Source: a virus (taxonomy: Duplodnaviria > Caudoviricetes). Taken from it: 38,533 bases of DNA. Location: positions 1-38,533 of the IMG/VR virus record IMGVR_UViG_3300034410_000409. One strand, given 5' to 3'. Shown in pieces: positions 1 to 30,154 of the stretch. The position numbers and the translations under genes were made by a program. How positions within the stretch are numbered: the first letter of the stretch is position 1; each line of letters starts with the position of its first letter. A model generated the notes under the pieces. That model was given only the letters and a program-made list of their open reading frames with translations, had not been told where the DNA came from and did not search any database.

Positions 1-619
1 TTCGACTTCCGTCAAAATTATCAGTACGAGCATGATCTGGTTTGTATTCAAGTTCTGGATAAGCCTCTGCAAACTTTTCTAGAGTTTCACGTGGAATAAG
101 CATAAAGCCTGTACCACCTTCACCAATTTCCATAGGCTCATTCATTTTAAATGAACTTTGCTTAGCAACTGGATTAAAGACATAATCAGCTGAGTAATTT
201 TCTAGAGCAAACGGATTTTCATCTCCAAGACCTGCTTGTGCTGCCTTAGCAACCTTTTCCCATGCAATTGCTTTCTTAGGATAAGGACCAGTTACAACAT
301 TATATTTTTCTGGATCTTTTAAATTGACTGCCAATAGGCCTAGTACATCACGCGGTGAGAACGTAATGTCTGCATCAATAAACAATAAATGAGTACAGTC
401 AGATCTTAAGAACTCATCAACAATATAGTTACGTGCCCTCTGAACTAAGCTCTCATTAAATAGGTAATAGAAATGAATACCAATACCGTTTGTTGCACAC
501 ATCGTAGCAAGATCTGCCGTTGCTTTAGTATAGGTACCAGCACATTGAGCGCCATACATAGGTGTACCTATAAAGATTTTTTGTTTTCGTAATTCTTCAA
601 TACTTACTTCAATGTTCAT
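1..619 (-). CDS. GT-A fold glycosyltransferase-like protein (3' end beyond window)
   Basis: Hand translation from ATG at 619, overlapping the dexA stop (ATGA): MNIEVSIEELRKQKIFIGTPMYG...NESLVQRARN...THLLFIDADI...GPYPKK. Has a DxD motif and GT2-like N-terminus. Confidence 0.7.
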   Translation of the reverse strand, partial: MNIEVSIEELRKQKIFIGTPMYGAQCAGTYTKATADLATMCATNGIGIHFYYLFNESLVQRARNYIVDEFLRSDCTHLLFIDADITFSPRDVLGLLAVNLKDPEKYNVVTGPYPKKAIAWEKVAKAAQAGLGDENPFALENYSADYVFNPVAKQSSFKMNEPMEIGEGGTGFMLIPRETLEKFAEAYPELEYKPDHARTDNFDGSR

Positions 620-1260
620 ATTTCAATTTGCTCCATGTCTGCCTCAGCTCTAACAATTGTTTGTAATCGGAGTATATCCGCAGCAACATCATGTTTACTA
701 TCATGTGCTTTAAAGTTGTATTCCCATTTTGCTACATCGGACACAGGAATGAATCCGTTTTTACCGCCTGGCACGTTAAAGTCAAACTTAGCATCAATGA
801 ATGTACGAGTATCGCGTACAGCCCAATACTTAAGATACTGACCTAGTAATTCTTGTTTATTAGCATTTTGTGCAATACGATCTAGAATAACTGGATCAAA
901 AGAGTTTGATCTTGACCACCAATAATCTATTGGCTGTTCACTACGAAGATAATCAATAAGCTTTTCCATAAACTGTACTGCGCTAAGATCTTGCTGTGAT
1001 GGTTTCATATTTGTACGAAGTTCAGGTGGCTGATCTAACCACCATTGCAAATCACGTTCATTATATTTGCATCCATGATTTACCATTTGATCTTTAATAT
1101 CAAACTTAGCTTGTTGCATACCAAGCACAAGTTCTTTAAAGGAATAAGGATTATCACTAGTAAACCTTTCCCAATCAAATACGATATAAGAACAATCAAT
1201 TGCAGGTACTTCCCGCGAGTTTTGACCTATTGTTTCAAAGTCAATTATAAAATGTCTCAA
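616..1260 (-). CDS. dexA: DexA-like 3'-5' exonuclease (DEDDh)
   Basis: Motifs IIDFETIG, WSRSNSFDPVIL, VRDTRT and HDSKHDVAAD match T4 DexA. Confidence 0.85.
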   Translation of the reverse strand: MRHFIIDFETIGQNSREVPAIDCSYIVFDWERFTSDNPYSFKELVLGMQQAKFDIKDQMVNHGCKYNERDLQWWLDQPPELRTNMKPSQQDLSAVQFMEKLIDYLRSEQPIDYWWSRSNSFDPVILDRIAQNANKQELLGQYLKYWAVRDTRTFIDAKFDFNVPGGKNGFIPVSDVAKWEYNFKAHDSKHDVAADILRLQTIVRAEADMEQIEI

Positions 1261-2462
1261 AGAAATGCCTCCAGTGTAGAACCGCGTTCGATATAATCTG
1301 CTTTCTGTCTATGATTATACTGCATAACGAAGTCTGTGTCAACTGTTACTAGTTCATTATCTAAATATTTTTTAATTTCAGCCGCCATATCAGTCGCTGT
1401 TTGTACTGGAACGTTTTGACAAATGTGATTAGCATTCTTAGGTGATGCACCAACCAATTCAAAATCTTCAGGTAATCCCATAATAGTCATTGCTTCACGA
1501 TAGTTAATAAAGCGATCTTCATCAGGGTGAGCTAGCATTAAAGGATAATGACCAACAAAAGCACCAATACGATCTTTTGGAATTGTTACTCCACGTCGCA
1601 TAATACTTTTACCTGATTCTAATTTAGCATGTTTGTATTTGCATTTTTCTACTTCACGTTCATAACCATTCTTTTCCATCCATTCTGCTACTTGCAAATA
1701 GTTATAACCTTGTTGTTCAATATAACTATAAACACATGCGCCACGAGCTGAAGTTGGCTCAATAGCATTTGCATGTTCAGCATGAGTACGACCACCATGA
1801 ATTTCTTCTAAGATGAATCTGTAATATGGATTGTCTGTTGGCTTTTTCTTATGATTGATTACTTCAGTTTGGAAGTTAGACTTAACACCACGGATTACTT
1901 CCTCAATAGGAGTATGAGGCTTGTTGTAATAGCTTAAAAGAGGTGTGGTATTACCTTTCCAGAAGAAATAGAATGACCTCTCGCGTACTTGTGGTGACCC
2001 ATGCAATAGAGATTTAGTACGATATACGGACATTGTATATCCATTTGCTTTGCCAATTTCTTTCATTTGATTACGAATTGTTGCACCAATCTTACCAGCA
2101 AATCCAGGAGCATTCTCTCCCCAGAATACTTTTGGCTTATATTCACCTAAGATATAATTAGCTGTTTCGACCAACCATTTGTTATTTGCGTTATCATCTC
2201 CATATCCCATCGACATAGTTGATAAACCAGCACAAGGACATACCGAGGATACTACATCCGCACGTTCGTTAGTAGGTGGTGATTGATCCTTATCTAAAAC
2301 ATAATAAGGAATTTCATTATTATAATAATTTAAGATGTGACTATCGTTAGCAGCAAAAGCTTCATATGACATAAAGTGCAGTGGTTTAGTACCAAATGCT
2401 TTATGTGAACCAATAGTCTCTCCACCAATTAAGGGTACGATGGATGCGTGTGTATAACTCAT
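1257..2462 (-). CDS. Divergent C5-cytosine DNA methyltransferase-like protein
   Basis: Motif IV SSVCPCAG, motif VI GENAPG, motif VIII QVRERSF, motifs IX/X REAMTIMGLPEDF and ICQNVPV. Motif I is atypical (IVPLIGGE). Confidence 0.8.
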   Translation of the reverse strand: MSYTHASIVPLIGGETIGSHKAFGTKPLHFMSYEAFAANDSHILNYYNNEIPYYVLDKDQSPPTNERADVVSSVCPCAGLSTMSMGYGDDNANNKWLVETANYILGEYKPKVFWGENAPGFAGKIGATIRNQMKEIGKANGYTMSVYRTKSLLHGSPQVRERSFYFFWKGNTTPLLSYYNKPHTPIEEVIRGVKSNFQTEVINHKKKPTDNPYYRFILEEIHGGRTHAEHANAIEPTSARGACVYSYIEQQGYNYLQVAEWMEKNGYEREVEKCKYKHAKLESGKSIMRRGVTIPKDRIGAFVGHYPLMLAHPDEDRFINYREAMTIMGLPEDFELVGASPKNANHICQNVPVQTATDMAAEIKKYLDNELVTVDTDFVMQYNHRQKADYIERGSTLEAFL

Positions 2463-2932
2463 TTATTTTCTCCTGCGCATGCTTCTACTACACGATTCCT
2501 TAAATCGGTAGATGAAAACGAGTGCTTACGTTTGTTATAGTGAATAGAACATAAGCCAACACCTGTATGATCTGTGCCTTTATATTCCTCGCCAACAATT
2601 CTAACGTGTGGCTGAATAGTCAAAATCATATCGACGATTTCTTGTTCTGTACTAAATGGAATGACTTCATCAACAAAACGACAACCCGCCAATTGAACAT
2701 AACGTTCAAACGGAGTTTGGATTGGTTTATTTTTTGATTCAGGACGGTCAACCGTAGGATCGGTTAATAACCCGCAAATGAGATAATCACAAAGCTCTTT
2801 AGCTTCTTGTAGCATTACAATATGACCAGCATGCAATAAATCAAAAGTAGAACAGGTAAAACCAATTCTTACTTCTTCAACAGGCTTACCAACTTTTCTT
2901 GCTATCTCAGCTTTGTTTGTAAACATTATCAA
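2459..2932 (-). CDS. HxGH cytidylyltransferase-like nucleotidyltransferase (TagD/HldE-C family)
   Basis: FDLLHAGH, ER..QL..CRFVDEV, GEEY and FSSTDLR motifs. Confidence 0.85.
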   Translation of the reverse strand: MIMFTNKAEIARKVGKPVEEVRIGFTCSTFDLLHAGHIVMLQEAKELCDYLICGLLTDPTVDRPESKNKPIQTPFERYVQLAGCRFVDEVIPFSTEQEIVDMILTIQPHVRIVGEEYKGTDHTGVGLCSIHYNKRKHSFSSTDLRNRVVEACAGENK

Positions 2933-3941
2933 TACACTCCATAATAAAATCTTTGTTAGGGTGGTACTTATACACCCTAGTCACTTCAGCTGCTACCAAT
3001 GATATCAGCATATCTCTATTTATATCATTTGCCATAGCCAAATAATTTAAAGATCGACCGAATAGTTTCTTTGGGTACTTGTTAATTAATAGGCTTGCAC
3101 AAAACTTAGCAGCGTCGAGTTCAGTAGAACCAAACACATCACAAATTGGATCGATCAAATGAGCATCACAGTTATTGAATAAGATGTTTTTAATACCGAA
3201 ATCACCGTGAGAATATCCACGCTTTATTTTATATTTGTTTAAACTCGAAGCAACATCCATTAGTTTTTTCTGGCCTGAGTTTTTAGCGTGTTCTTCAATA
3301 CGATCAATATAACTACTAAATGTTATATAGGATTTATTATTAACAGGCTTTAATGATTTCATTTTATCTAACTGTGTTTGAACTGTAGCTAAAGCCATCC
3401 AAAAGTTTTCTTTAAAGAAGTTTTCATCGTGATCAATATAATCCATAGTAATTGTTTCACCAACAACACGATGAATAGCCGGTGTTTTAATACCAATCTT
3501 TTCAGCTCTTTCAAACCAATCACGTGTTTGGTGAGCATTATTATCTTGCTTATGTACTACTTTACCATCAGTAAAGATTTCACCACCAGATAATCCACCT
3601 TCAAGTTCACGAATATCTACTTCAAGGAAATCCTCAGGCATAATACCTTTATCATCAATATAGTAAGCTGCTAATGGTTTATCAAATGAGAGCATATTAA
3701 ACTTTACTTTGTGCTTATTCAACCATTTGAGCATGCTTTTTTCATACTTATCTCGAGCATCTTCACGAGTTTCACATGATATAGAACCACGTGCCGTAAA
3801 GATATCGATTTGCCAACCATCGGCGTGCAGCTTATTCAACTTCTTAATAAGAGGTTTGTTTGGTAAAGCCTTATCAAACTCGCGGTTTTGATGAAAGGCA
3901 AGTGTGTCGTCAAAATCTACTACAATACGTTTATGGTACAT
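2907..3941 (-). CDS. Fusion of an N-terminal HAD phosphatase and a C-terminal APH/choline-kinase-like phosphotransferase
   Basis: HAD motifs VVDFDDTL, FTAR, KP and YIDDK; kinase motifs HGDFGIKNILF and LIDP. Confidence 0.8.
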   Translation of the reverse strand: MYHKRIVVDFDDTLAFHQNREFDKALPNKPLIKKLNKLHADGWQIDIFTARGSISCETREDARDKYEKSMLKWLNKHKVKFNMLSFDKPLAAYYIDDKGIMPEDFLEVDIRELEGGLSGGEIFTDGKVVHKQDNNAHQTRDWFERAEKIGIKTPAIHRVVGETITMDYIDHDENFFKENFWMALATVQTQLDKMKSLKPVNNKSYITFSSYIDRIEEHAKNSGQKKLMDVASSLNKYKIKRGYSHGDFGIKNILFNNCDAHLIDPICDVFGSTELDAAKFCASLLINKYPKKLFGRSLNYLAMANDINRDMLISLVAAEVTRVYKYHPNKDFIMECIDNVYKQS

Positions 3942-5365
3942 TAAAAAAATCCCTCAAGTGTTGCACCCGTTTCTTTAGGTTCTTTGATTTCATTTTGTCT
4001 GCCATCAACAAGAGTGTATGCTTTTTCATTTAATACACTGCCTGGTGTTGATACAATAATCTCACCAGCTTCACGTCGTTGTTTTGCACTTGGAAAATAA
4101 CTTGAAATCCTATCTATAAAGTTTATATTATCACGCCTTTTTCCTTTTGTCAACACAAAATCTAAGAACTTAGGACCAAGCACTTCAATATCATTAAAGT
4201 TATAAACTAATTCTTGACAAGCCTTTGTACGTGCTTCCCACTCTTCTTTGTTATCATAAATTCTATTCAATTCTGCTGCTAACTCTTCTTCACATGTCGC
4301 TTCAGATATAAGTGGTCCATAGTATTCACCCCACTTTTTACCTTCAGGTGATACTGCGTTTTCAGCAAAGTGTTTACTGATAACAGGAAGAGATAAAAGG
4401 AATGATTCAATTACAGTATATTCCATACGATGGCCATACTCTTTTGGATCACCGAGACGATATCCACACCATGCTGCTGTAGAACTACCGAGTTGACTCA
4501 TTCCAAAATCATATTTGTAACTATCATATGCTGTAATAGTTGTACCAGTCTTTTCTTTTTCTTTGGCTGGTTCATAGTGTTCGCCAGCAGAATTTGTACC
4601 AACAAATTTAATCTTTGGTTGATATGATTTATGGTAAGGTGCTGCATCAGTGGCAAGAGTTTTAGAGTTTGGATCTCCAATAGATGAGATAGAACGTTCA
4701 CAACCCATCAAAGTTAAATCCCAGTCATTCTTTAGATATGGTTCAATACGACAGATCATACCTGGATCTTTAAGTGTTGACATACGACCCATGTACATAA
4801 AGTGCTTTTTACGATCTTCAAGGGATGCGCGATGTTTGTCGTATTCACCAGTACGAACCCATATTGGATTCTCCATTAGTCGACCTTCAAGGCCCGGATC
4901 AGTGTGCAGATAACACTCGTTAGAGTAACCTTCAAATGATTGTGTAACACCAATGTCTGCTAAAGAAAACAACTCAGCGGCTTGTGTTTGTCTGTTAATA
5001 GTGTTCTTTGTAATAGCATGGTCGTGTATTACAATGATTGGATCTCCAATGCCTTCGACAAATTCACGGAAACGATCGATGTACTTTCCATTTTTGCGGG
5101 TTGGGAATGAGTGTATGATTGCAATGTCGCAAGTGTTTACTTCATCAAGTACTGGCTGTGCGTCTTCAAGTTCATGATCAGATTCAACGCGGTGAATAGT
5201 ACTTTTCCATTCAGTATCTTTAGCACGACCAAATTTTTGTTTATTATCAAAATCAATTACAATGGTTTCATGTCCTTGTGATACCAACCACGATTCAAAT
5301 ATGTTTGCACCTTTAGTAACGCCGCATCCTTCGATGCCCTTTCCAAAGATAAAAGCAACTTTCAT
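3941..5365 (-). CDS. agt: DNA alpha-glucosyltransferase-like GT-B glycosyltransferase
   Basis: GIEGCGVTK, HDH, GR..TLK, GCERS and MEYTVIE parallel T4 AGT motifs GLEGCGVTK, HDH, GR..TWK, GLERS and LEYTHLE. Confidence 0.8.
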   Translation of the reverse strand: MKVAFIFGKGIEGCGVTKGANIFESWLVSQGHETIVIDFDNKQKFGRAKDTEWKSTIHRVESDHELEDAQPVLDEVNTCDIAIIHSFPTRKNGKYIDRFREFVEGIGDPIIVIHDHAITKNTINRQTQAAELFSLADIGVTQSFEGYSNECYLHTDPGLEGRLMENPIWVRTGEYDKHRASLEDRKKHFMYMGRMSTLKDPGMICRIEPYLKNDWDLTLMGCERSISSIGDPNSKTLATDAAPYHKSYQPKIKFVGTNSAGEHYEPAKEKEKTGTTITAYDSYKYDFGMSQLGSSTAAWCGYRLGDPKEYGHRMEYTVIESFLLSLPVISKHFAENAVSPEGKKWGEYYGPLISEATCEEELAAELNRIYDNKEEWEARTKACQELVYNFNDIEVLGPKFLDFVLTKGKRRDNINFIDRISSYFPSAKQRREAGEIIVSTPGSVLNEKAYTLVDGRQNEIKEPKETGATLEGFF

Positions 5366-5375
5366 TATATAACTC

Positions 5376-5738
5376 CTATATTAAATATTCTTTGCATTCA
5401 GCTAAAATTTGTTTTACAAGCTTCTTGTCATTCATTTGCCGATTAAGTGGCGATGGATGCGGGAGCCTGAAGTGTGATTTATTTATGACCGATAAACAGT
5501 TGCTCGCAAAAACTCCTAAAGCTAAAACCTTAGAATGATCTTCAACTAAACCTCTCAGTCTGTCAAAATCAACATCCTTCATTTTAACTTTACCCTTTTG
5601 AGTTACTACGTTAGCAAAGCTATAATTGTTGATACCAAGATCATCACACCACTCGTTAAGGCGAACTATAGTATGACCTTTATACGTAGCAGTCTTTGGA
5701 TTGTTACCAGGATTTTGACCAATTACTAATACACTCAT
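5376..5738 (-). CDS. Small uracil-DNA-glycosylase-fold protein
   Basis: UDG superfamily motifs [14 protein letters not shown] and LPHPSPLNR; only 120 aa. Confidence 0.7.
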
Positions 5739-6061
5739 TCTACAAACTTCTCAAATTTATGTGGTATGTTTTCCCATTCATAAGCATCCTCTAACGGAGC
5801 TTTTTCTTCATCGATGTTTGGCCATATCTGACTATATTTAGCATTTCTTTCCATCCAAATAATTTTATCTGGTTCAGGTAGATCTACATCAGATACAATC
5901 GCATCAACTGGACATTCCGGTACACATATTCCACAGTCAATACATTCATCAGGATTAATAACCAACATATCAGGTCCTTCATAGAAACAATCTACAGGAC
6001 AAACTGATACGCACGTGGTGTGCTTACATTTTACACAATTGTCGGTAACTAAATAAGTCAT
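5735..6061 (-). CDS. fdxA: 7Fe ferredoxin (FdxA type), 108 aa
   Basis: [29 protein letters not shown]...[13 protein letters not shown]. Start placed at MTYLV (6061), downstream of the deaminase stop. Confidence 0.92.
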
Positions 6062-6069
6062 AATACTTA

Positions 6070-6546
6070 TTATACACCAAGAATTGTAACTTGTACACCG
6101 CTTTCTGAAAACATTGGCAAAGAATGTTCTTCCCAAACTTTTTGCCATTCGGCTCGGTCAGTTTTATCAGTTGGAATTACTATTTCTTTAATGCCGGCTT
6201 GTATAACACACTTAGCACAATCAGGACAAATAGGCAATCCATGTACATACATCGTTGAACCTTTAAGGCTTACACCTGAATATAAAGCATTCATAAGAGC
6301 GTTCATTTCAGCATGAACTACAAGCTTATGTTTTAATTCACGAGTGTTGAGCCTTACTTCGGTATCATCAATACCCTTTGGAAATCCATTATAGCCTGTT
6401 GCTAGGATTCTTCGCTCATCATTAACGACTACACAACCAATCTTACTTGATGGATCTTTACTCCATGTTGCAATCATCTCGGCCATATCCATAAATCGCA
6501 TATGCCATTTGTCGTTATTCTTTAAAAAGATTACGTTATCGTTCAA
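6070..6546 (-). CDS. cd: dCMP deaminase
   Basis: [23 protein letters not shown] and PICPDCAK zinc motifs. Confidence 0.92.
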
Positions 6547-6886
6547 AGAGAGTACTCCATTGTTCTAGTTTCTTTTTCTTAACAGCAATTCTTTGATCTA
6601 TTTCTGCTTGAGAAACGAGATTAAATTCTTTGAGTAATTCAATCATTGCTGCCACGTCACCAATTTCATCTTTTAAGTTATTGGTAAACTTTTCTTGCAG
6701 GGCTTTAGTTCTTATTACTTTACTACAAGCTTGTGTTAACTCACCGCATTCTTCCATAGTAATAACTAACAGCTCATCAATCTTATTTGATTTTATAAGC
6801 TGATTAGCACGTCGGTCTGACTCGCGGAAATAAGAATCATACTCTTTTTCTTGTTGCTCAAGAACGTAAGCGCCCATTTTACTCAT
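6536..6886 (-). CDS. MazG-like nucleotide pyrophosphohydrolase
   Basis: MEECGELTQA...DEIGDV acidic motif. Confidence 0.8.
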   Translation of the reverse strand: MSKMGAYVLEQQEKEYDSYFRESDRRANQLIKSNKIDELLVITMEECGELTQACSKVIRTKALQEKFTNNLKDEIGDVAAMIELLKEFNLVSQAEIDQRIAVKKKKLEQWSTLFER

Positions 6887-6887
6887 G

Positions 6888-7598
6888 TTATTCTACCAAG
6901 TTGAAGTGTCGGTCATACACGTGTAAGTTCATTACTTGCCAGATAAGATCACCTTTAGTAATGCTGTTGATTGCAGGTGTACCGAATGTATTCATGTTAT
7001 TATCAGCAGCTTCAACGTTATATTCTTTAACGAACTTATCCATTAGATACTGAGCCCATGCGTAATCATTTTTATAGCCAAAGACTACGTCATTAGAGCG
7101 CATTTGAGATACCATATGTAGTTTACCATCACGAATATAAAAGGTCTGAGCGTTAGTACAGATGAAATCAGACTTACCGTTTTCATTGTATTCGGCCCAG
7201 ATAGATGGACGATTATAGACCATTTGAGCACGACGTGAATCAGGATTTTGAAGCAATTCATTCATAGCATTTCGGTATTGATTGAAGTACTTATCAGAAT
7301 AAACAATATGGCCATAGTTTGAATTGATTTCACCAACGTCATTAGCTGAATATTGCCAAGCCATTGGTGGTTCTTTTTCATCACCATGAATATCATTAAT
7401 GTTCGTTGATTGGCTTTCATACCAGTCGAGTTCAGCTTGGATATACTTAGGAGCTGGTTTACCAAAGATTGCTTCTTCATCAGCAACAAAAGATGCGCCG
7501 AGCATCTCAATAGTTTTAGCACCTGTTTTATCAGTAGTAAATCTTTCAGCAGCTAATTCGCTTTTGAAATATTCACGTACGTCACTTACTTTCATCAT
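6888..7598 (-). CDS. 42: dCMP hydroxymethylase (gp42-like, thymidylate synthase fold)
   Basis: DFICTN and MRSNDVVFGYKNDYAW versus T4 gp42 DFMCTN and MRSNDVVFGFRNDYAW; dCMP-specifying Asp present; NLHVYDRHF. Start could be 7619, 7604 or 7598. Confidence 0.88.
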   Translation of the reverse strand: MMKVSDVREYFKSELAAERFTTDKTGAKTIEMLGASFVADEEAIFGKPAPKYIQAELDWYESQSTNINDIHGDEKEPPMAWQYSANDVGEINSNYGHIVYSDKYFNQYRNAMNELLQNPDSRRAQMVYNRPSIWAEYNENGKSDFICTNAQTFYIRDGKLHMVSQMRSNDVVFGYKNDYAWAQYLMDKFVKEYNVEAADNNMNTFGTPAINSITKGDLIWQVMNLHVYDRHFNLVE

Positions 7599-7722
7599 CG
7601 CCATAATAATATCCTTCATTCGAGTTTGATTCTAGGTCTTCTACAATTCTATAAAGATCTTGTAGCTTTTCGATATCATTTTTATTTTCAGTATCGATCT
7701 GAATTTCTATTTTTATAATCAT
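7582..7722 (-). CDS. Small acidic hypothetical protein (46 aa)
   Basis: Hand translation MIIKIEIQIDTENKNDIEKLQDLY...; fills the operon gap exactly. Confidence 0.6.
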   Translation of the reverse strand: MIIKIEIQIDTENKNDIEKLQDLYRIVEDLESNSNEGYYYGDDESK

Positions 7723-7724
7723 AA

Positions 7725-8054
7725 TTATTCATTGTAATCAGTTTCTTTGTTAAATCTATCATCAAAATCTTCAGCAGTAGCTTCGGCTTGACACATGATA
7801 AGTATCATCATTTGTGTAAGAGCGTGATGAGTGTGTGGTAATCCACTTTCAGGATCAATATCTTCGCCTGAGTTCCAAGCTAAGAGATGTCGCATGATTG
7901 ATCCATAATGACGTGTTGATGGAAACTTATTAACATCTTTACGCCAATTATTTTTGCCATACTTTTGAGCACCAAAAGCAAACACTTCAGCCGCAGCAAT
8001 AATAGCTTCAGATGGAACGAGATCAATTGGTGGTTTGTCGTTATCAAACTTCAT
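7725..8054 (-). CDS. dATP/dGTP diphosphohydrolase-like protein (DUF5664 family)
   Basis: KFDNDKP, GAQKYGKNNW, RHL.AW and DPESGLPH motifs. Confidence 0.85.
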   Translation of the reverse strand: MKFDNDKPPIDLVPSEAIIAAAEVFAFGAQKYGKNNWRKDVNKFPSTRHYGSIMRHLLAWNSGEDIDPESGLPHTHHALTQMMILIMCQAEATAEDFDDRFNKETDYNE

Positions 8055-8065
8055 AATATATCCTT

Positions 8066-8674
8066 TTAATATACGCTTTCATTATATACAGAGCGTGGGT
8101 CACCGTTTTTATTGTAGAAAAACTTAAGCTTTTTGTTACCATACTGATCGACAATAAAGTTGTTATCGAACTTAGTATTACATGGTCTAAGGTTTTCACG
8201 AATAGTATCAAAAGGTGCAACACATCTCCATCTTACATCATAAGTATTTTCAGATAATTTATTATAACATCCAAAGATAACAATGTCAACACATTTTGGA
8301 TAGAGCTTGCGATTGCGAGCTAGCTTTTGTCCCATATAGTTTGAGATCGTAAGCCACTTGGTTTCGTATTTTTTGCCTACAGGATCTGCAGCATTCTTTA
8401 CTTCGCATCTAAATCCATTCCAATCAACATCCCAGTTATGAGATGAGGGAACAGTGTGGTCAAACTCAGCGGGATTCATTACACCACCTTGTCGAACCAA
8501 AGCAAATTCAAGAATGACGCCAGCCTTTGTGTGAGCATATACAGTTTCATAGCTACGGTCACGTCTACGTACGTCGCAAGCATACATTTCTTTAGCCATA
8601 GTTTCTATATGCGCCAACTCATCCTCGTTTAATTCAAGGATGAGAGGCTCTGGGAGGGTAAGCTTTTTAGGCAT
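8066..8674 (-). CDS. Putative PD-(D/E)xK nuclease
   Basis: Helix with G...E followed by WDV...CEVK; the family call is tentative. Confidence 0.45.
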   Translation of the reverse strand: MPKKLTLPEPLILELNEDELAHIETMAKEMYACDVRRRDRSYETVYAHTKAGVILEFALVRQGGVMNPAEFDHTVPSSHNWDVDWNGFRCEVKNAADPVGKKYETKWLTISNYMGQKLARNRKLYPKCVDIVIFGCYNKLSENTYDVRWRCVAPFDTIRENLRPCNTKFDNNFIVDQYGNKKLKFFYNKNGDPRSVYNESVY

Positions 8675-9227: not shown

Positions 9228-9256
9228 ATTATACATCATTTAAGAACGAATGTCAA
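9228..9256 (-). promoter_or_regulatory. Sigma70-type early promoter, likely driving the DNA-modification operon
   Basis: TTGACA-N17-TATAAT. Confidence 0.85.
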
Positions 9257-29698: not shown

Positions 29699-29783
29699 TG
29701 GTACTCTCGACCGGACTCGAACCGGTAAGCTGTTAGGCGACAGATTTTAAGTCTGTTGTGTATACCAATTCCACCACGAGAGC
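29699..29783 (-). tRNA. tRNA-Leu (TAA)
   Basis: GCTCTCG acceptor stem, TGG D-loop, ACAGA-CTTAAAA-TCTGT anticodon arm, variable arm, GGTTCGAGTCC and encoded CCA. Confidence 0.95.
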
Positions 29784-30154
29784 TAAGACTTTTCTTTATA
29801 GTCTTTTATTGCAGCTTTAATTGCATCTTCCGCCAAAACAGAGCAGTGTATTTTAACGGGTGGTAGAGCTAATTCATTTGCAAGATCTGTATTTTTAATT
29901 GCACCAGCTTCTTCTAACGTTTGTCCCTTTACCCACTCAGTAAGCAAAGAGCTTGAAGCAATGGCAGATCCACATCCATAAGTTTTAAATTTAGCATCTT
30001 CGATAACACCATCTTTTACTTTAATTTGTAAACGCATTACGTCTCCGCATGCTGGTGCTCCAACCATACCTGTTCCAATATTATCAGCAGGATCCCATTT
30101 ACCAACATTCCTAGGATTCTCGTAATGATCAATTACTTTTTCGGAGTAAGCCAT
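29783..30154 (-). CDS. iscU: Fe-S cluster scaffold IscU
   Basis: MAYSEKVIDHYENPRNVG, APACGD, GCGSAIASSS and LPPVKIHCS; TATAAATA at 30187-30194. Confidence 0.96.
   Translation of the reverse strand: MAYSEKVIDHYENPRNVGKWDPADNIGTGMVGAPACGDVMRLQIKVKDGVIEDAKFKTYGCGSAIASSSLLTEWVKGQTLEEAGAIKNTDLANELALPPVKIHCSVLAEDAIKAAIKDYKEKS

What the first reader, a model, noticed from the sequence alone, without database searches (positions are those of the whole stretch)
1..8674. Expanded cytosine-hypermodification operon, probably making a non-T4 base modification
Seen: one tightly coupled minus-strand operon with a nuclease-like gene, DUF5664 and MazG pyrophosphatases, a gp42-like enzyme, dCMP deaminase, ferredoxin, mini-UDG, an AGT homolog, a HAD/kinase fusion, an HxGH nucleotidyltransferase, a C5-MTase-like gene, DexA and a GT-A protein. 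Known: T4 gp42 plus AGT gives glucosyl-hmC from host UDP-glucose and needs no donor-synthesis genes. Inference: the extra genes supply a different sugar or polyol donor and possibly further decoration, giving a modified cytosine that may be undescribed and may protect against restriction and CRISPR.
Basis: partly seen in the sequence, partly recalled or inferred. Interest (0 to 1): 0.85.

Follow-up and report, generated by a model that had tools for sequence, protein, structure and literature searches.

The report
Phage heptose-coated hydroxymethylcytosine gene cassette
An uncultured T4-like phage carries genes predicted to replace cytosine in its DNA with hydroxymethylcytosine, plus a swappable three-gene cassette that likely makes its own activated sugar, probably a heptose, and attaches it as nuclease camouflage; this is an untested variant of a pathway already shown in another phage, and a neighbouring methylase-like gene remains unexplained.

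Summary
The genes are there, tightly coupled on the minus strand. The gp42-like gene has the dCMP-hydroxymethylase signature (49% identical to T-even gp42), and the 'nuclease-like' gene is a DenB/endonuclease IV homolog, so cytosine is likely replaced by hmC. Only three 'extra' genes form the sugar pathway: the AGT-family transferase, the HAD/APH-kinase fusion and the HxGH nucleotidyltransferase. They move as one block (86-97% nucleotide identity to a relative whose flanks are 58-68%), and 26 of 29 long-AGT clusters carry the fusion. The same three-enzyme design made heptosyl-hmC in E. coli (Pyle et al., contig 53), and the HAD and kinase are homologs of the RB69/HY126 arabinose-donor enzymes. 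Best reading: NDP-heptose added to hmC (about 60%); some phage-made sugar (about 90%). Ferredoxin, mini-UDG, MazG, DexA and GT-A are patchy or backbone genes, not decoration enzymes. The C5-methylase-like gene travels with gp42 whatever sugar cassette is present; it keeps its cytosine-activating motifs but has a remodelled SAM pocket, and is the open question. This scan found the same cassette before on other genomes. New variant of a known kind.

The parts
9228..9256 (-). Consensus sigma-70-type (early) promoter upstream of the two small ORFs before the nuclease gene
   Evidence: 12 of 12 match; 11 such sites in the window vs 0.04 expected
8066..8674 (-). DenB / T4 endonuclease IV homolog (predicted dC-DNA-specific nuclease); supports full C replacement, not part of the sugar pathway
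   Evidence: Atlas top cluster PF26887 score 0.97; hhalign of 14-sequence family to T4 DenB 96.6%, E 6e-10; E56, D82, E91, K93 invariant
8261..8289 (-). Consensus promoter inside the nuclease gene, likely start of the DUF5664-to-C5-methylase transcript
   Evidence: 12 of 12 plus TG
7725..8054 (-). DUF5664 / PF18909 dNTP diphosphohydrolase, candidate dCTPase
   Evidence: E 2e-28; it or an alternative 115-aa protein lies within 2.5 kb of gp42 in 80 of 89 clusters, both together in 4 loci only; substrate inferred
6888..7619 (-). gp42-type dCMP hydroxymethylase (true start probably near 7601)
   Evidence: 49% to T-even gp42; PDB 1b49 E 9e-65 with catalytic Cys, Asp at ThyA-177 and Asp at ThyA-143 positions kept, Asp169 kept (signature from PMC13326640)
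6536..6886 (-). MazG-like pyrophosphohydrolase, dispensable
   Evidence: 2 of 19 clusters; lost in the close relative L004
6070..6546 (-). dCMP deaminase (dTMP supply)
   Evidence: E 7e-22; 39 of 40 C5-methylase-anchored clusters
5735..6061 (-). FdxA ferredoxin, host-like auxiliary gene with its own promoter-like site (6097-6069)
   Evidence: NF045490 above cut-off; 3 of 19 clusters; site 10 of 12
5376..5738 (-). 120-aa UDG-superfamily protein, optional companion of hmC loci
   Evidence: PF03167 8e-5; 5 of 20 and 16 of 29; absent in L004
3941..5365 (-). Long AGT-family GT-B DNA glycosyltransferase (474 aa); cassette gene 1
   Evidence: PF11440, PDB 1xv5 E 1e-9; keeps T6 G13, G15, R46, H116, R204, K209, E306, Y307, E311, but H140 is Q
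2907..3941 (-). HAD phosphatase (AfhF/EcbF type) fused to an APH-fold small-molecule kinase; cassette gene 2
   Evidence: DxD, T, K, DD and HGDxxxxN, D motifs invariant in 111 homologs; HAD to RB69 gp51 99.2% probability, 43% identity; kinase to RB69 gp52 E 5e-5; fold searches
2459..2926 (-). HxGH nucleotidyltransferase (RfaE-II/TagD superfamily); cassette gene 3
   Evidence: TIGR02199 77.5 bits, TIGR01518 53.8 bits, both below cut-off; beside the HAD/kinase in 71 of 71 scored clusters
1257..2462 (-). Phage C5-cytosine-methylase-like protein with altered SAM-pocket motifs; tied to gp42, not to the sugar cassette
   Evidence: PF00145 9e-21; PC, EN and QxRxR kept, motif I PLIGG, motif X QNVP; gp42 nearby in 37 of 38 clusters, HAD/kinase in 5 of 23
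1314..1342 (-). Consensus promoter ahead of DexA, marking the next unit
   Evidence: 12 of 12
616..1260 (-). DexA-like 3'-5' exonuclease, backbone
   Evidence: 8 of 21 long-AGT clusters
2..619 (-). GT-A protein (phrog_1574; 285 aa in the near-identical locus L307), backbone gene before the sliding clamp
   Evidence: same position in phiM12, Cr30, DLP6, which gave no gp42 match

Best explanation
The phage is predicted to build its DNA with 5-hydroxymethylcytosine and then likely coats that base with a heptose, using an activated sugar it would make itself with a three-gene cassette (transferase, phosphatase-kinase fusion, nucleotidyltransferase) that is shown here to move between phages as one block. 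Steps: (1) the gp42 homolog turns dCMP into hmdCMP (inferred from a conserved signature); DUF5664 likely destroys dCTP, dCMP deaminase feeds dTMP, and the DenB homolog would cut cytosine-containing host DNA. (2) The APH-fold kinase would phosphorylate C1 of a host sugar phosphate, most likely D-glycero-D-manno-heptose 7-phosphate; the fused HAD domain would remove the terminal phosphate; the HxGH enzyme would add NMP, probably CMP, giving an NDP-heptose that differs from the host's ADP-beta-heptose. (3) The long AGT-family enzyme would transfer it to hmC in replicated DNA, probably with alpha linkage as T4 AGT does. (4) The C5-methylase-like protein belongs to the hmC module, not the sugar module; most likely it modifies C5 of cytosines that escape replacement, shielding them from the phage's DenB-like nuclease and host enzymes (inference, about 45%). 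Ferredoxin, UDG, MazG, DexA and GT-A are not needed for the base.
For: gp42 signature; 193 of 206 gp42 hits in the loci share it, 10 gave no pattern match, 3 differ. DenB homology. Cassette boundaries: in L005 and L022 identity to the window is 86-97% and 76-94% over 5400-2600 and 55-68% on both sides. Co-occurrence: HAD/kinase in 26 of 29 and HxGH in 25 of 28 long-AGT clusters fetched by AGT queries; 0 of 6 scored short-AGT clusters. Published precedent of the same design giving 449-u mono-heptose and 641-u di-heptose products, all three enzymes needed (Pyle et al.); the same HAD/kinase + HxGH family also sits beside Tet_JBP and TAGT genes here (L249, L276), as contig 53 sits beside a TET. 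Chemistry: homology to AfhF and the AfhE kinase, which run kinase-phosphatase-nucleotidyltransferase on arabinose 5-phosphate; L126 has the same AGT with HAD, NTP-transferase and kinase as separate genes. HxGH best family is the heptose-1-phosphate adenylyltransferase domain. Donor pocket differs from T-even AGT: His140 is absent in 23 of 23 long representatives and present in 12 of 12 short ones, which lack donor genes where scored. One relative (G004) also carries GmhA-like, HxGH and transaldolase genes.
Against: No sugar was measured. Sequence homology to contig 53's enzymes could not be tested (sequences not available), and GT53 is described as beta-GT-like, not AGT-like. The only characterised sequence homologs of the HAD and kinase act on arabinose. 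No HxGH or HAD family score reaches its cut-off, and fold searches do not name a substrate (APH, choline and MTR kinases tie). No isomerase in the cassette; SIS_2 in only 1 of 10 genomes searched, about 40 kb from the cassette, and the cassette also occurs in a phage of a Gram-positive host (AB434P2). The His140 split follows the family tree, so it is one event, not 35; three long members have His one column earlier; His140's role in glucose binding is recalled, not checked (searches found nothing). Three phage-G-like long AGTs lack the fusion. The window has no dNMP kinase hit among the ORFs scanned, but it is a 38.5-kb fragment.
Confidence: 0.6

Rival explanations
1. Same pathway, but the sugar is a pentose (arabinose or ribose): the HAD/kinase keeps the Afh substrate, HxGH replaces the MurU-like domain, and the base is pentosyl-hmC rather than the known arabinosyl-5-hydroxycytosine.
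For: HAD 43% identical to RB69 gp51 and matched to PDB 9iqw AfhF; kinase related to RB69 gp52 and to methylthioribose kinase; ribose 5-phosphate needs no isomerase and is present in all hosts.
Against: Contig 53, with the fused HAD-APH + CTP-transferase design, gave heptose in E. coli, where arabinose 5-phosphate and ribose 5-phosphate are also available (availability is established knowledge); Afh loci carry their own isomerase, this cassette does not.
Confidence: 0.17
2. Same pathway with another sugar phosphate (a hexose 6-phosphate or sedoheptulose 7-phosphate), giving a hexosyl- or ketoheptosyl-hmC.
For: No isomerase in cassettes; occurrence in Gram-positive-host phages and with optional epimerases or a second GT-A; sedoheptulose would give the same 449-u mass.
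Against: Glucose would need no phage donor genes; RfaE-II is the best nucleotidyltransferase family.
Confidence: 0.12
3. The kinase and HxGH enzyme make a CDP-polyol or CDP-amino-alcohol (TagD / choline-kinase logic) and a phospho-alcohol, not a sugar, is put on hmC.
For: Best PDB sequence hits of the HxGH protein are ethanolamine- and glycerol-phosphate cytidylyltransferases; R-x-H-x-x-S-S/T-S/T tail in 91 of 100; choline kinases among the fold hits.
Against: A fused sugar-bisphosphate phosphatase has no place in that route; the partner is a glycosyltransferase keeping T-even AGT's NDP-sugar contacts.
Confidence: 0.05
4. The base is plain alpha-glucosyl-hmC from host UDP-glucose; the donor genes serve something else, such as virion or cell-surface glycans.
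For: AGT homology; some jumbo loci put the cassette among many other glycosyltransferases with no gp42 within 5 kb (L146, L147, L150).
Against: The three genes recombine as a unit into the slot between gp42/dCMP deaminase and the C5-methylase-like gene, where other phages hold other DNA-sugar kits (12 arrangements in 56 loci); short glucose-type AGTs fill that slot without donor genes.
Confidence: 0.06

Closest known systems
Contig 53 subclass III cluster (Pyle, Lund, O'Toole, Saleh; bioRxiv 10.1101/2023.12.21.572611)
   Same: Bifunctional HAD + APH enzyme, cytidylyltransferase-family enzyme and one GT-B acting on hmC; all three needed for mono- and di-heptosyl products.
   Different: There hmC comes from C5-methylase + TET after replication and the GT is described as T4 beta-GT-like; here hmC would come from gp42 before replication and the GT is AGT-family. 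Sequence homology not testable.
Afh pathway of RB69, HY126, DLP3 (arabinosyl-5-hydroxycytosine; PMC13326640)
   Same: Homologous HAD (AfhF) and APH kinase (AfhE C-terminal domain); kinase, phosphatase, nucleotidyltransferase order.
   Different: Base is 5-hydroxy-C (D169N synthase), here D169 is kept; MurU-like transferase fused to the kinase versus separate HxGH enzyme; Afh has an isomerase; different GT family.
T-even glucosyl-hmC system (gp42, gp56, gp1, AGT/BGT, DenB)
   Same: gp42 ortholog, AGT-family transferase, dCMP deaminase, DenB homolog.
   Different: AGT is about 70 aa longer, about 20% identical and lacks His140; phage-made donor; DUF5664 where a dCTPase is expected; extra C5-methylase-like gene.
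Bacillus phage G gp301-gp319 and Pseudoalteromonas phage XG4 loci (uncharacterised)
   Same: Asp-type TS homolog, GT-B enzymes, HAD, APH-like kinase, nucleotidyltransferase and the same C5-methylase-like family.
   Different: RmlA/MurU-type rather than HxGH nucleotidyltransferase; no chemistry found in the papers searched.

Membership tests
T4 gp42-type dCMP hydroxymethylase | Catalytic Cys, Asp at ThyA position 177 (dCMP), Asp at 143, Asp169 kept (not the hydroxylase Asn) | tested here: met
   Alignment to 1b49; positions from PMC13326640 section 28
T4 gp42-type dCMP hydroxymethylase | Makes hmdCMP | not testable with these tools
   Needs expression and LC-MS
T-even glucosyl-hmC system | AGT with the T-even donor-pocket residues | tested here: not met
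   Phosphate and ribose contacts kept, His140 replaced by an invariant Gln
T-even glucosyl-hmC system | No phage donor-synthesis genes | tested here: not met
   HAD/kinase + HxGH linked in 26 of 29 and 25 of 28 clusters
T-even glucosyl-hmC system | dCTPase, dNMP kinase, dC-DNA nuclease | tested here: inconclusive
   DenB homolog met; DUF5664 is only a candidate dCTPase; no kinase hit in this fragment
Contig 53 heptosyl-hmC cluster | HAD + APH bifunctional protein, CTP-transferase-like protein and GT-B together | tested here: met
Contig 53 heptosyl-hmC cluster | Sequence homology to the contig 53 enzymes | not testable with these tools
   Preprint supplements closed; journal version not held
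Contig 53 heptosyl-hmC cluster | hmC made by C5-methylase + TET | tested here: not met
   gp42 in the locus, no Tet_JBP hit among the ORFs scanned
Contig 53 heptosyl-hmC cluster | 449-u product | not testable with these tools
   Needs LC-MS
Afh arabinosyl-5hoC pathway | D169N 5-hydroxy-dCMP synthase | tested here: not met
   Asp kept
Afh arabinosyl-5hoC pathway | AfhF-type HAD and AfhE-type kinase | tested here: met
   (kinase match weak, 68% probability)
Afh arabinosyl-5hoC pathway | MurU-like uridylyltransferase and arabinose-5-phosphate isomerase in the cluster | tested here: not met
   HxGH instead; no isomerase ORF in 1-8674
SAM-dependent DNA C5-cytosine methyltransferases | Catalytic motifs IV (PC), VI (EN), VIII (QxRxR) | tested here: met
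   128, 129 and 129 of 129 full-length family members; aligned to HaeIII and MET1
SAM-dependent DNA C5-cytosine methyltransferases | SAM-binding motif I FxGxG and motif X GN | tested here: not met
   PLIGG in 21 of 25 and Gln for the motif X Gly in 25 of 25 representatives found without using these motifs; motif X contrast seen; canonical motif I is recalled
SAM-dependent DNA C5-cytosine methyltransferases | Methylates DNA with SAM | not testable with these tools
   Needs an assay
T4 endonuclease IV (DenB) | Homology over the catalytic E/D/ExK core | tested here: met

The most novel reading that the evidence does not exclude
The C5-methylase-like protein, fixed beside gp42 in hundreds of uncultured phages whatever sugar kit they carry, is not a SAM methylase: with its cytosine-activating residues intact and two SAM-pocket glycines replaced by Leu and Gln, it performs SAM-independent chemistry at C5 of DNA (adding a hydroxymethyl to escaped cytosines, or exchanging or removing the hydroxymethyl of hmC), the natural counterpart of a side reaction known for C5-methylases in vitro (recalled). 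Together with an AGT-family alpha-heptosyltransferase fed by CDP-heptose, this would be a new DNA enzyme class and a genome-wide heptose coat.
Probability: 0.2. Interest if true: 0.8.

Novelty: new variant of a known kind. Interest (0 to 1): 0.45.

Why it matters
If right, an AGT-family enzyme, known only as a glucosyltransferase, transfers a phage-made heptose, and a pre-replicative hmC phage carries that coat across its genome, whereas heptosyl-mC has so far been made only by reconstitution from a TET-type cluster. The locus is a natural experiment: one genomic slot holds a dozen interchangeable sugar kits, as expected if hosts' modification-dependent nucleases drive sugar switching. It points to cultured phages (AB434P2, XG4, phage G) whose DNA could be analysed directly, and it isolates one abundant, unexplained enzyme, the odd C5-methylase, as the real open question.

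Tried and rejected
Single-sequence fold of the HAD/kinase failed (pLDDT 39); the alignment-based model worked. Fold searches gave the APH/choline-kinase superfamily but no substrate. I expected the optional 305-aa gene between HAD/kinase and HxGH to be an ADP-heptose epimerase; it has no Pfam or NCBIfam hit and reads as a GT-A-like protein with a DDD motif, so it gives no support for heptose. Ferredoxin, UDG and MazG as decoration enzymes: rejected on patchy distribution and loss in L004. GT-A as second transferase: rejected as backbone, though it follows the C5-methylase-like gene in 46 of 46 scored clusters of that backbone, so a role on DNA is not excluded. 5-hydroxy-C synthase: rejected (Asp169). 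Search for an isomerase: 1 of 10 genomes. T4 DenB as a single query found nothing in 5 related genomes, too insensitive to mean anything. No locus with the exact contig 53 layout (C5-MT + TET + HAD-APH + HxGH + GT-B) was recognised in the 50 loci inspected. Could not check whether the C5-MTs of Burke et al. belong to this family (supplement unreadable). Papers on T4 AGT His140, phage G DNA chemistry and S-TIM5 methylation were not found in the library. No complex prediction or read mapping was run; neither bears on the claim.

Full report
Observation. The window is a 38.5-kb fragment of a T4-like phage (topoisomerase subunits, tail tube, UvsY, head closure). Exact sigma-70 consensus promoters occur 11 times against 0.04 expected; those at 8289-8261 and 1342-1314 bracket DUF5664 through the C5-methylase-like gene, so the nuclease lies upstream of the module and DexA and GT-A probably open the clamp/clamp-loader unit that follows in the near-identical locus L307. 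The promoters are consensus matches, not measured starts.

The base. The TS-fold gene is 49% identical to T-even dCMP hydroxymethylase and aligns to PDB 1b49 at E 9e-65 with the catalytic Cys, the dCMP-selecting Asp and the Asp three residues before the Cys. It keeps Asp169, so it is not a 5-hydroxy-dCMP synthase by the signature of PMC13326640 (section 28). The same signature holds in 193 of 206 gp42 hits across all loci; 10 gave no pattern match and 3 differ. The 202-aa 'nuclease-like' gene has no Pfam or PHROG hit, but its nearest Atlas cluster is T4 endonuclease IV and a 14-sequence profile matches T4 DenB at 96.6%. DenB cuts cytosine-containing DNA (established knowledge), which fits full replacement. 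DUF5664 is a candidate dCTPase by position only.

The cassette. In the first 32 related loci the order gp42, AGT, HAD/kinase, HxGH, C5-methylase recurs wherever the contig reaches. In L005 and L022 nucleotide identity to the window is 86-97% and 76-94% across 5400-2600 and falls to 55-68% at both edges: exactly these three genes were exchanged as a block. Among loci fetched by AGT queries (87 hits, 29 clusters at 90% identity; a cluster is scored if the partner is found or 4 kb is present on both sides, which favours presence), the HAD/kinase lies within 5 kb in 26 of 29 and HxGH in 25 of 28; the three misses are phage-G-like. The link holds down to 22-28% AGT identity and with changed gene order. 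HxGH accompanies the fusion in 71 of 71 scored clusters of 73. By contrast MazG scores 2 of 19, ferredoxin 3 of 19, UDG 5 of 20, DexA 8 of 21, GT-A 9 of 21 (8-10 clusters unscored each), and L004, 92-94% identical, lacks MazG and UDG. GT-A sits before the clamp gene in phiM12, Cr30 and DLP6, which gave no gp42 match while the control XG4 did.

What the cassette makes. The fusion has invariant HAD and APH-kinase motifs in 111 homologs; a confident model (pLDDT 91) matches APH, choline and methylthioribose kinases and the HAD AfhF of phage HY126. Profile comparison links the HAD to RB69 gp51 (99.2%, 43% identity) and the kinase weakly to RB69 gp52 (E 5e-5). In those phages kinase, HAD and a nucleotidyltransferase turn arabinose 5-phosphate into UDP-arabinofuranose (PMC13326640 section 27). 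Here an HxGH enzyme takes the last step; its best family is the heptose-1-phosphate adenylyltransferase domain, ahead of TagD, both under cut-off, and its C-terminal R-x-H-x-x-S-S/T-S/T (91 of 100) aligns with the TagD tail, which hints at CTP. The decisive precedent is contig 53 of Pyle et al. (passages and section 7 read): a HAD + APH bifunctional enzyme, a cytidylyltransferase and a GT-B, all three required for 449-u mono-heptose and 641-u di-heptose products on hmC in E. coli. I could not compare sequences (preprint supplements closed, journal version not held), but our family also occurs beside Tet_JBP genes. The transferase keeps T6 AGT's G13, G15, R46, H116, R204, K209, E306, Y307 and E311 but not His140: of 39 representatives, 23 long ones have Gln, Phe or Tyr, 12 short ones have His, and 4 GT4 rows were left out; short AGTs had no donor genes in 6 of 6 scored clusters of 14. 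This split is phylogenetic and His140's contact with glucose O6 is recalled only. Against heptose: no isomerase in the cassette, SIS_2 in 1 of 10 genomes, presence in a Gram-positive-host phage, and arabinose as the substrate of the only characterised homologs. I put heptose at 0.6, pentose 0.17, another sugar 0.12, polyol 0.05, plain glucose 0.06.

The C5-methylase-like gene. Its family is large (about 1,600 IMG/VR stretches by the tool's estimate; best 80 fetched). In those loci gp42 is nearby in 37 of 38 scored clusters of 50 but the HAD/kinase in only 5 of 23. In the 56 of 78 new loci holding both gp42 and this gene, the slot between them has 12 arrangements, the long-AGT cassette in 3. 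It therefore belongs with hmC, not with any sugar. PC, EN and QxRxR are near-invariant, but motif I reads PLIGG in 21 of 25 and motif X has Gln for Gly in 25 of 25 representatives collected without those motifs; PDB alignments start only after motif I and show GN in HaeIII and MET1. The larger count (124 and 128 of 129) is partly circular, since searched with these motifs. A methylase has little to do in a genome without cytosine; my committed guess is that it modifies escaped cytosines and so protects the phage from its own DenB-like nuclease (about 45%), with SAM-independent C5 chemistry as the bold alternative (about 20%). Among cultured phages it matched 8 records: five S-TIM5-group, two of phage G, and XG4; S-TIM5, phage G and XG4 each carry an Asp-type TS homolog and a GT-B.

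Literature seen. Pyle preprint: passages and section 7. PMC13326640: abstract, passages, sections 27-29. PMC8256090: passages; supplement unreadable and may hold C5-MT alignments that bear on the odd methylase. PMC8056088, PMC8670742, PMC10087341, PMC5694885, bioRxiv 2024.12.05.627091: passages. PMC7824862: passages and section 19. PMC13216743: term search, no hits. Iyer 2013, Sabehi 2012, the AGT structure paper and the SAM-free C5-methylase chemistry: recalled only. Ten word searches showed no paper describing gp42 with an AGT-family enzyme and this donor pair, nor the PLIGG methylase; the library lacks most subscription journals.

Earlier scan notes. Two notes on an atypical C5-methylase travelling with hmC loci prompted the C5-anchored test, which bore them out. 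Eight notes, read after I had found the Pyle result, reach the same reading on other genomes; they are not independent evidence. No notes exist for this genome.

Verdict. Real, well-supported module; the donor pathway is a known design, here in a new combination (pre-replicative hmC, AGT-family transferase). New variant of a known kind, interest 0.45. What this window adds is the sharp recombination boundary that defines the three-gene unit, the DenB assignment, the sorting of passengers from pathway genes and the remodelled SAM pocket of the methylase-like protein.

Noticed in passing
L160-L237, between gp42/dCMP deaminase and the C5-methylase-like gene: A hypervariable 'sugar slot': 12 arrangements in 56 loci, including short AGT alone, a GT-B with UDP-galactopyranose mutase, a GT4, TAGT + epimerase + UDP-glucose dehydrogenase, and myo-inositol-1-phosphate synthase + an HMUDK_hel protein + GT, which suggests an inositol-bearing base.
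   Followed up: partly
L101 (OP172633.1) 401-5582: Cultured gut phage AB434P2 of Agathobaculum carries dUTPase-like, dNMP kinase, HAD/kinase, HxGH, GT-B, Asp-type TS homolog and a second probable GT-B in a row: a direct test case.
   Followed up: partly
L002 (phage G) 11304-26495: Phage G has two long AGTs, an RmlA-like transferase, a HAD, an APH-like kinase (gp311), an Asp-type TS homolog and the odd C5-methylase: a second donor kit of the same logic.
   Followed up: partly
L001 8775-9611 and 11995-13212; L153 1453-2733: Cyanophage S-TIM5 has the odd C5-methylase, a TS homolog with Asp at position 177 and, far away, an AGT that keeps His140. I recall a report that only cytosines after purines are protected in its DNA; paper not available.
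   Followed up: partly
L247, L248, L253, L258, L278, L282, L286, L287, L298, L301, L305, L306, L324: HAD/kinase + HxGH + TAGT-family GT-A beside a radical SAM protein and ParB domains, with no gp42 nearby: a possible different route to the acceptor base.
   Followed up: no
L249 and L276, 5306-8500: Tet_JBP + TAGT + HAD/kinase + HxGH, with no C5-methylase recognised among the adjacent genes.
   Followed up: partly
window 7725-8054 and L088 7376-7723: DUF5664 and an unrelated 115-aa protein (weak DUF1599 hit) nearly exclude each other just upstream of gp42 (either in 80 of 89 clusters, both in 4 loci), suggesting two interchangeable dCTP-removing proteins.
   Followed up: partly
L126 1256-5657: Long AGT with split HAD, NTP-transferase and kinase directly before a psbA gene, so a cyanophage carries an Afh-like arrangement.
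   Followed up: no
window 5735-6061 and 29783-30154: FdxA ferredoxin and a NifU-like Fe-S scaffold in the same fragment: host-like iron-sulfur auxiliary genes.
   Followed up: no
window 7582-7722: 46-aa ORF overlapping the gp42 start, matched only in the closest relative L004 among the first 32 loci; no family.
   Followed up: no
L385 611-2374 (G004): HxGH, GmhA-like isomerase and transaldolase in a row in a phage that also has the long-AGT cassette about 40 kb away.
   Followed up: partly
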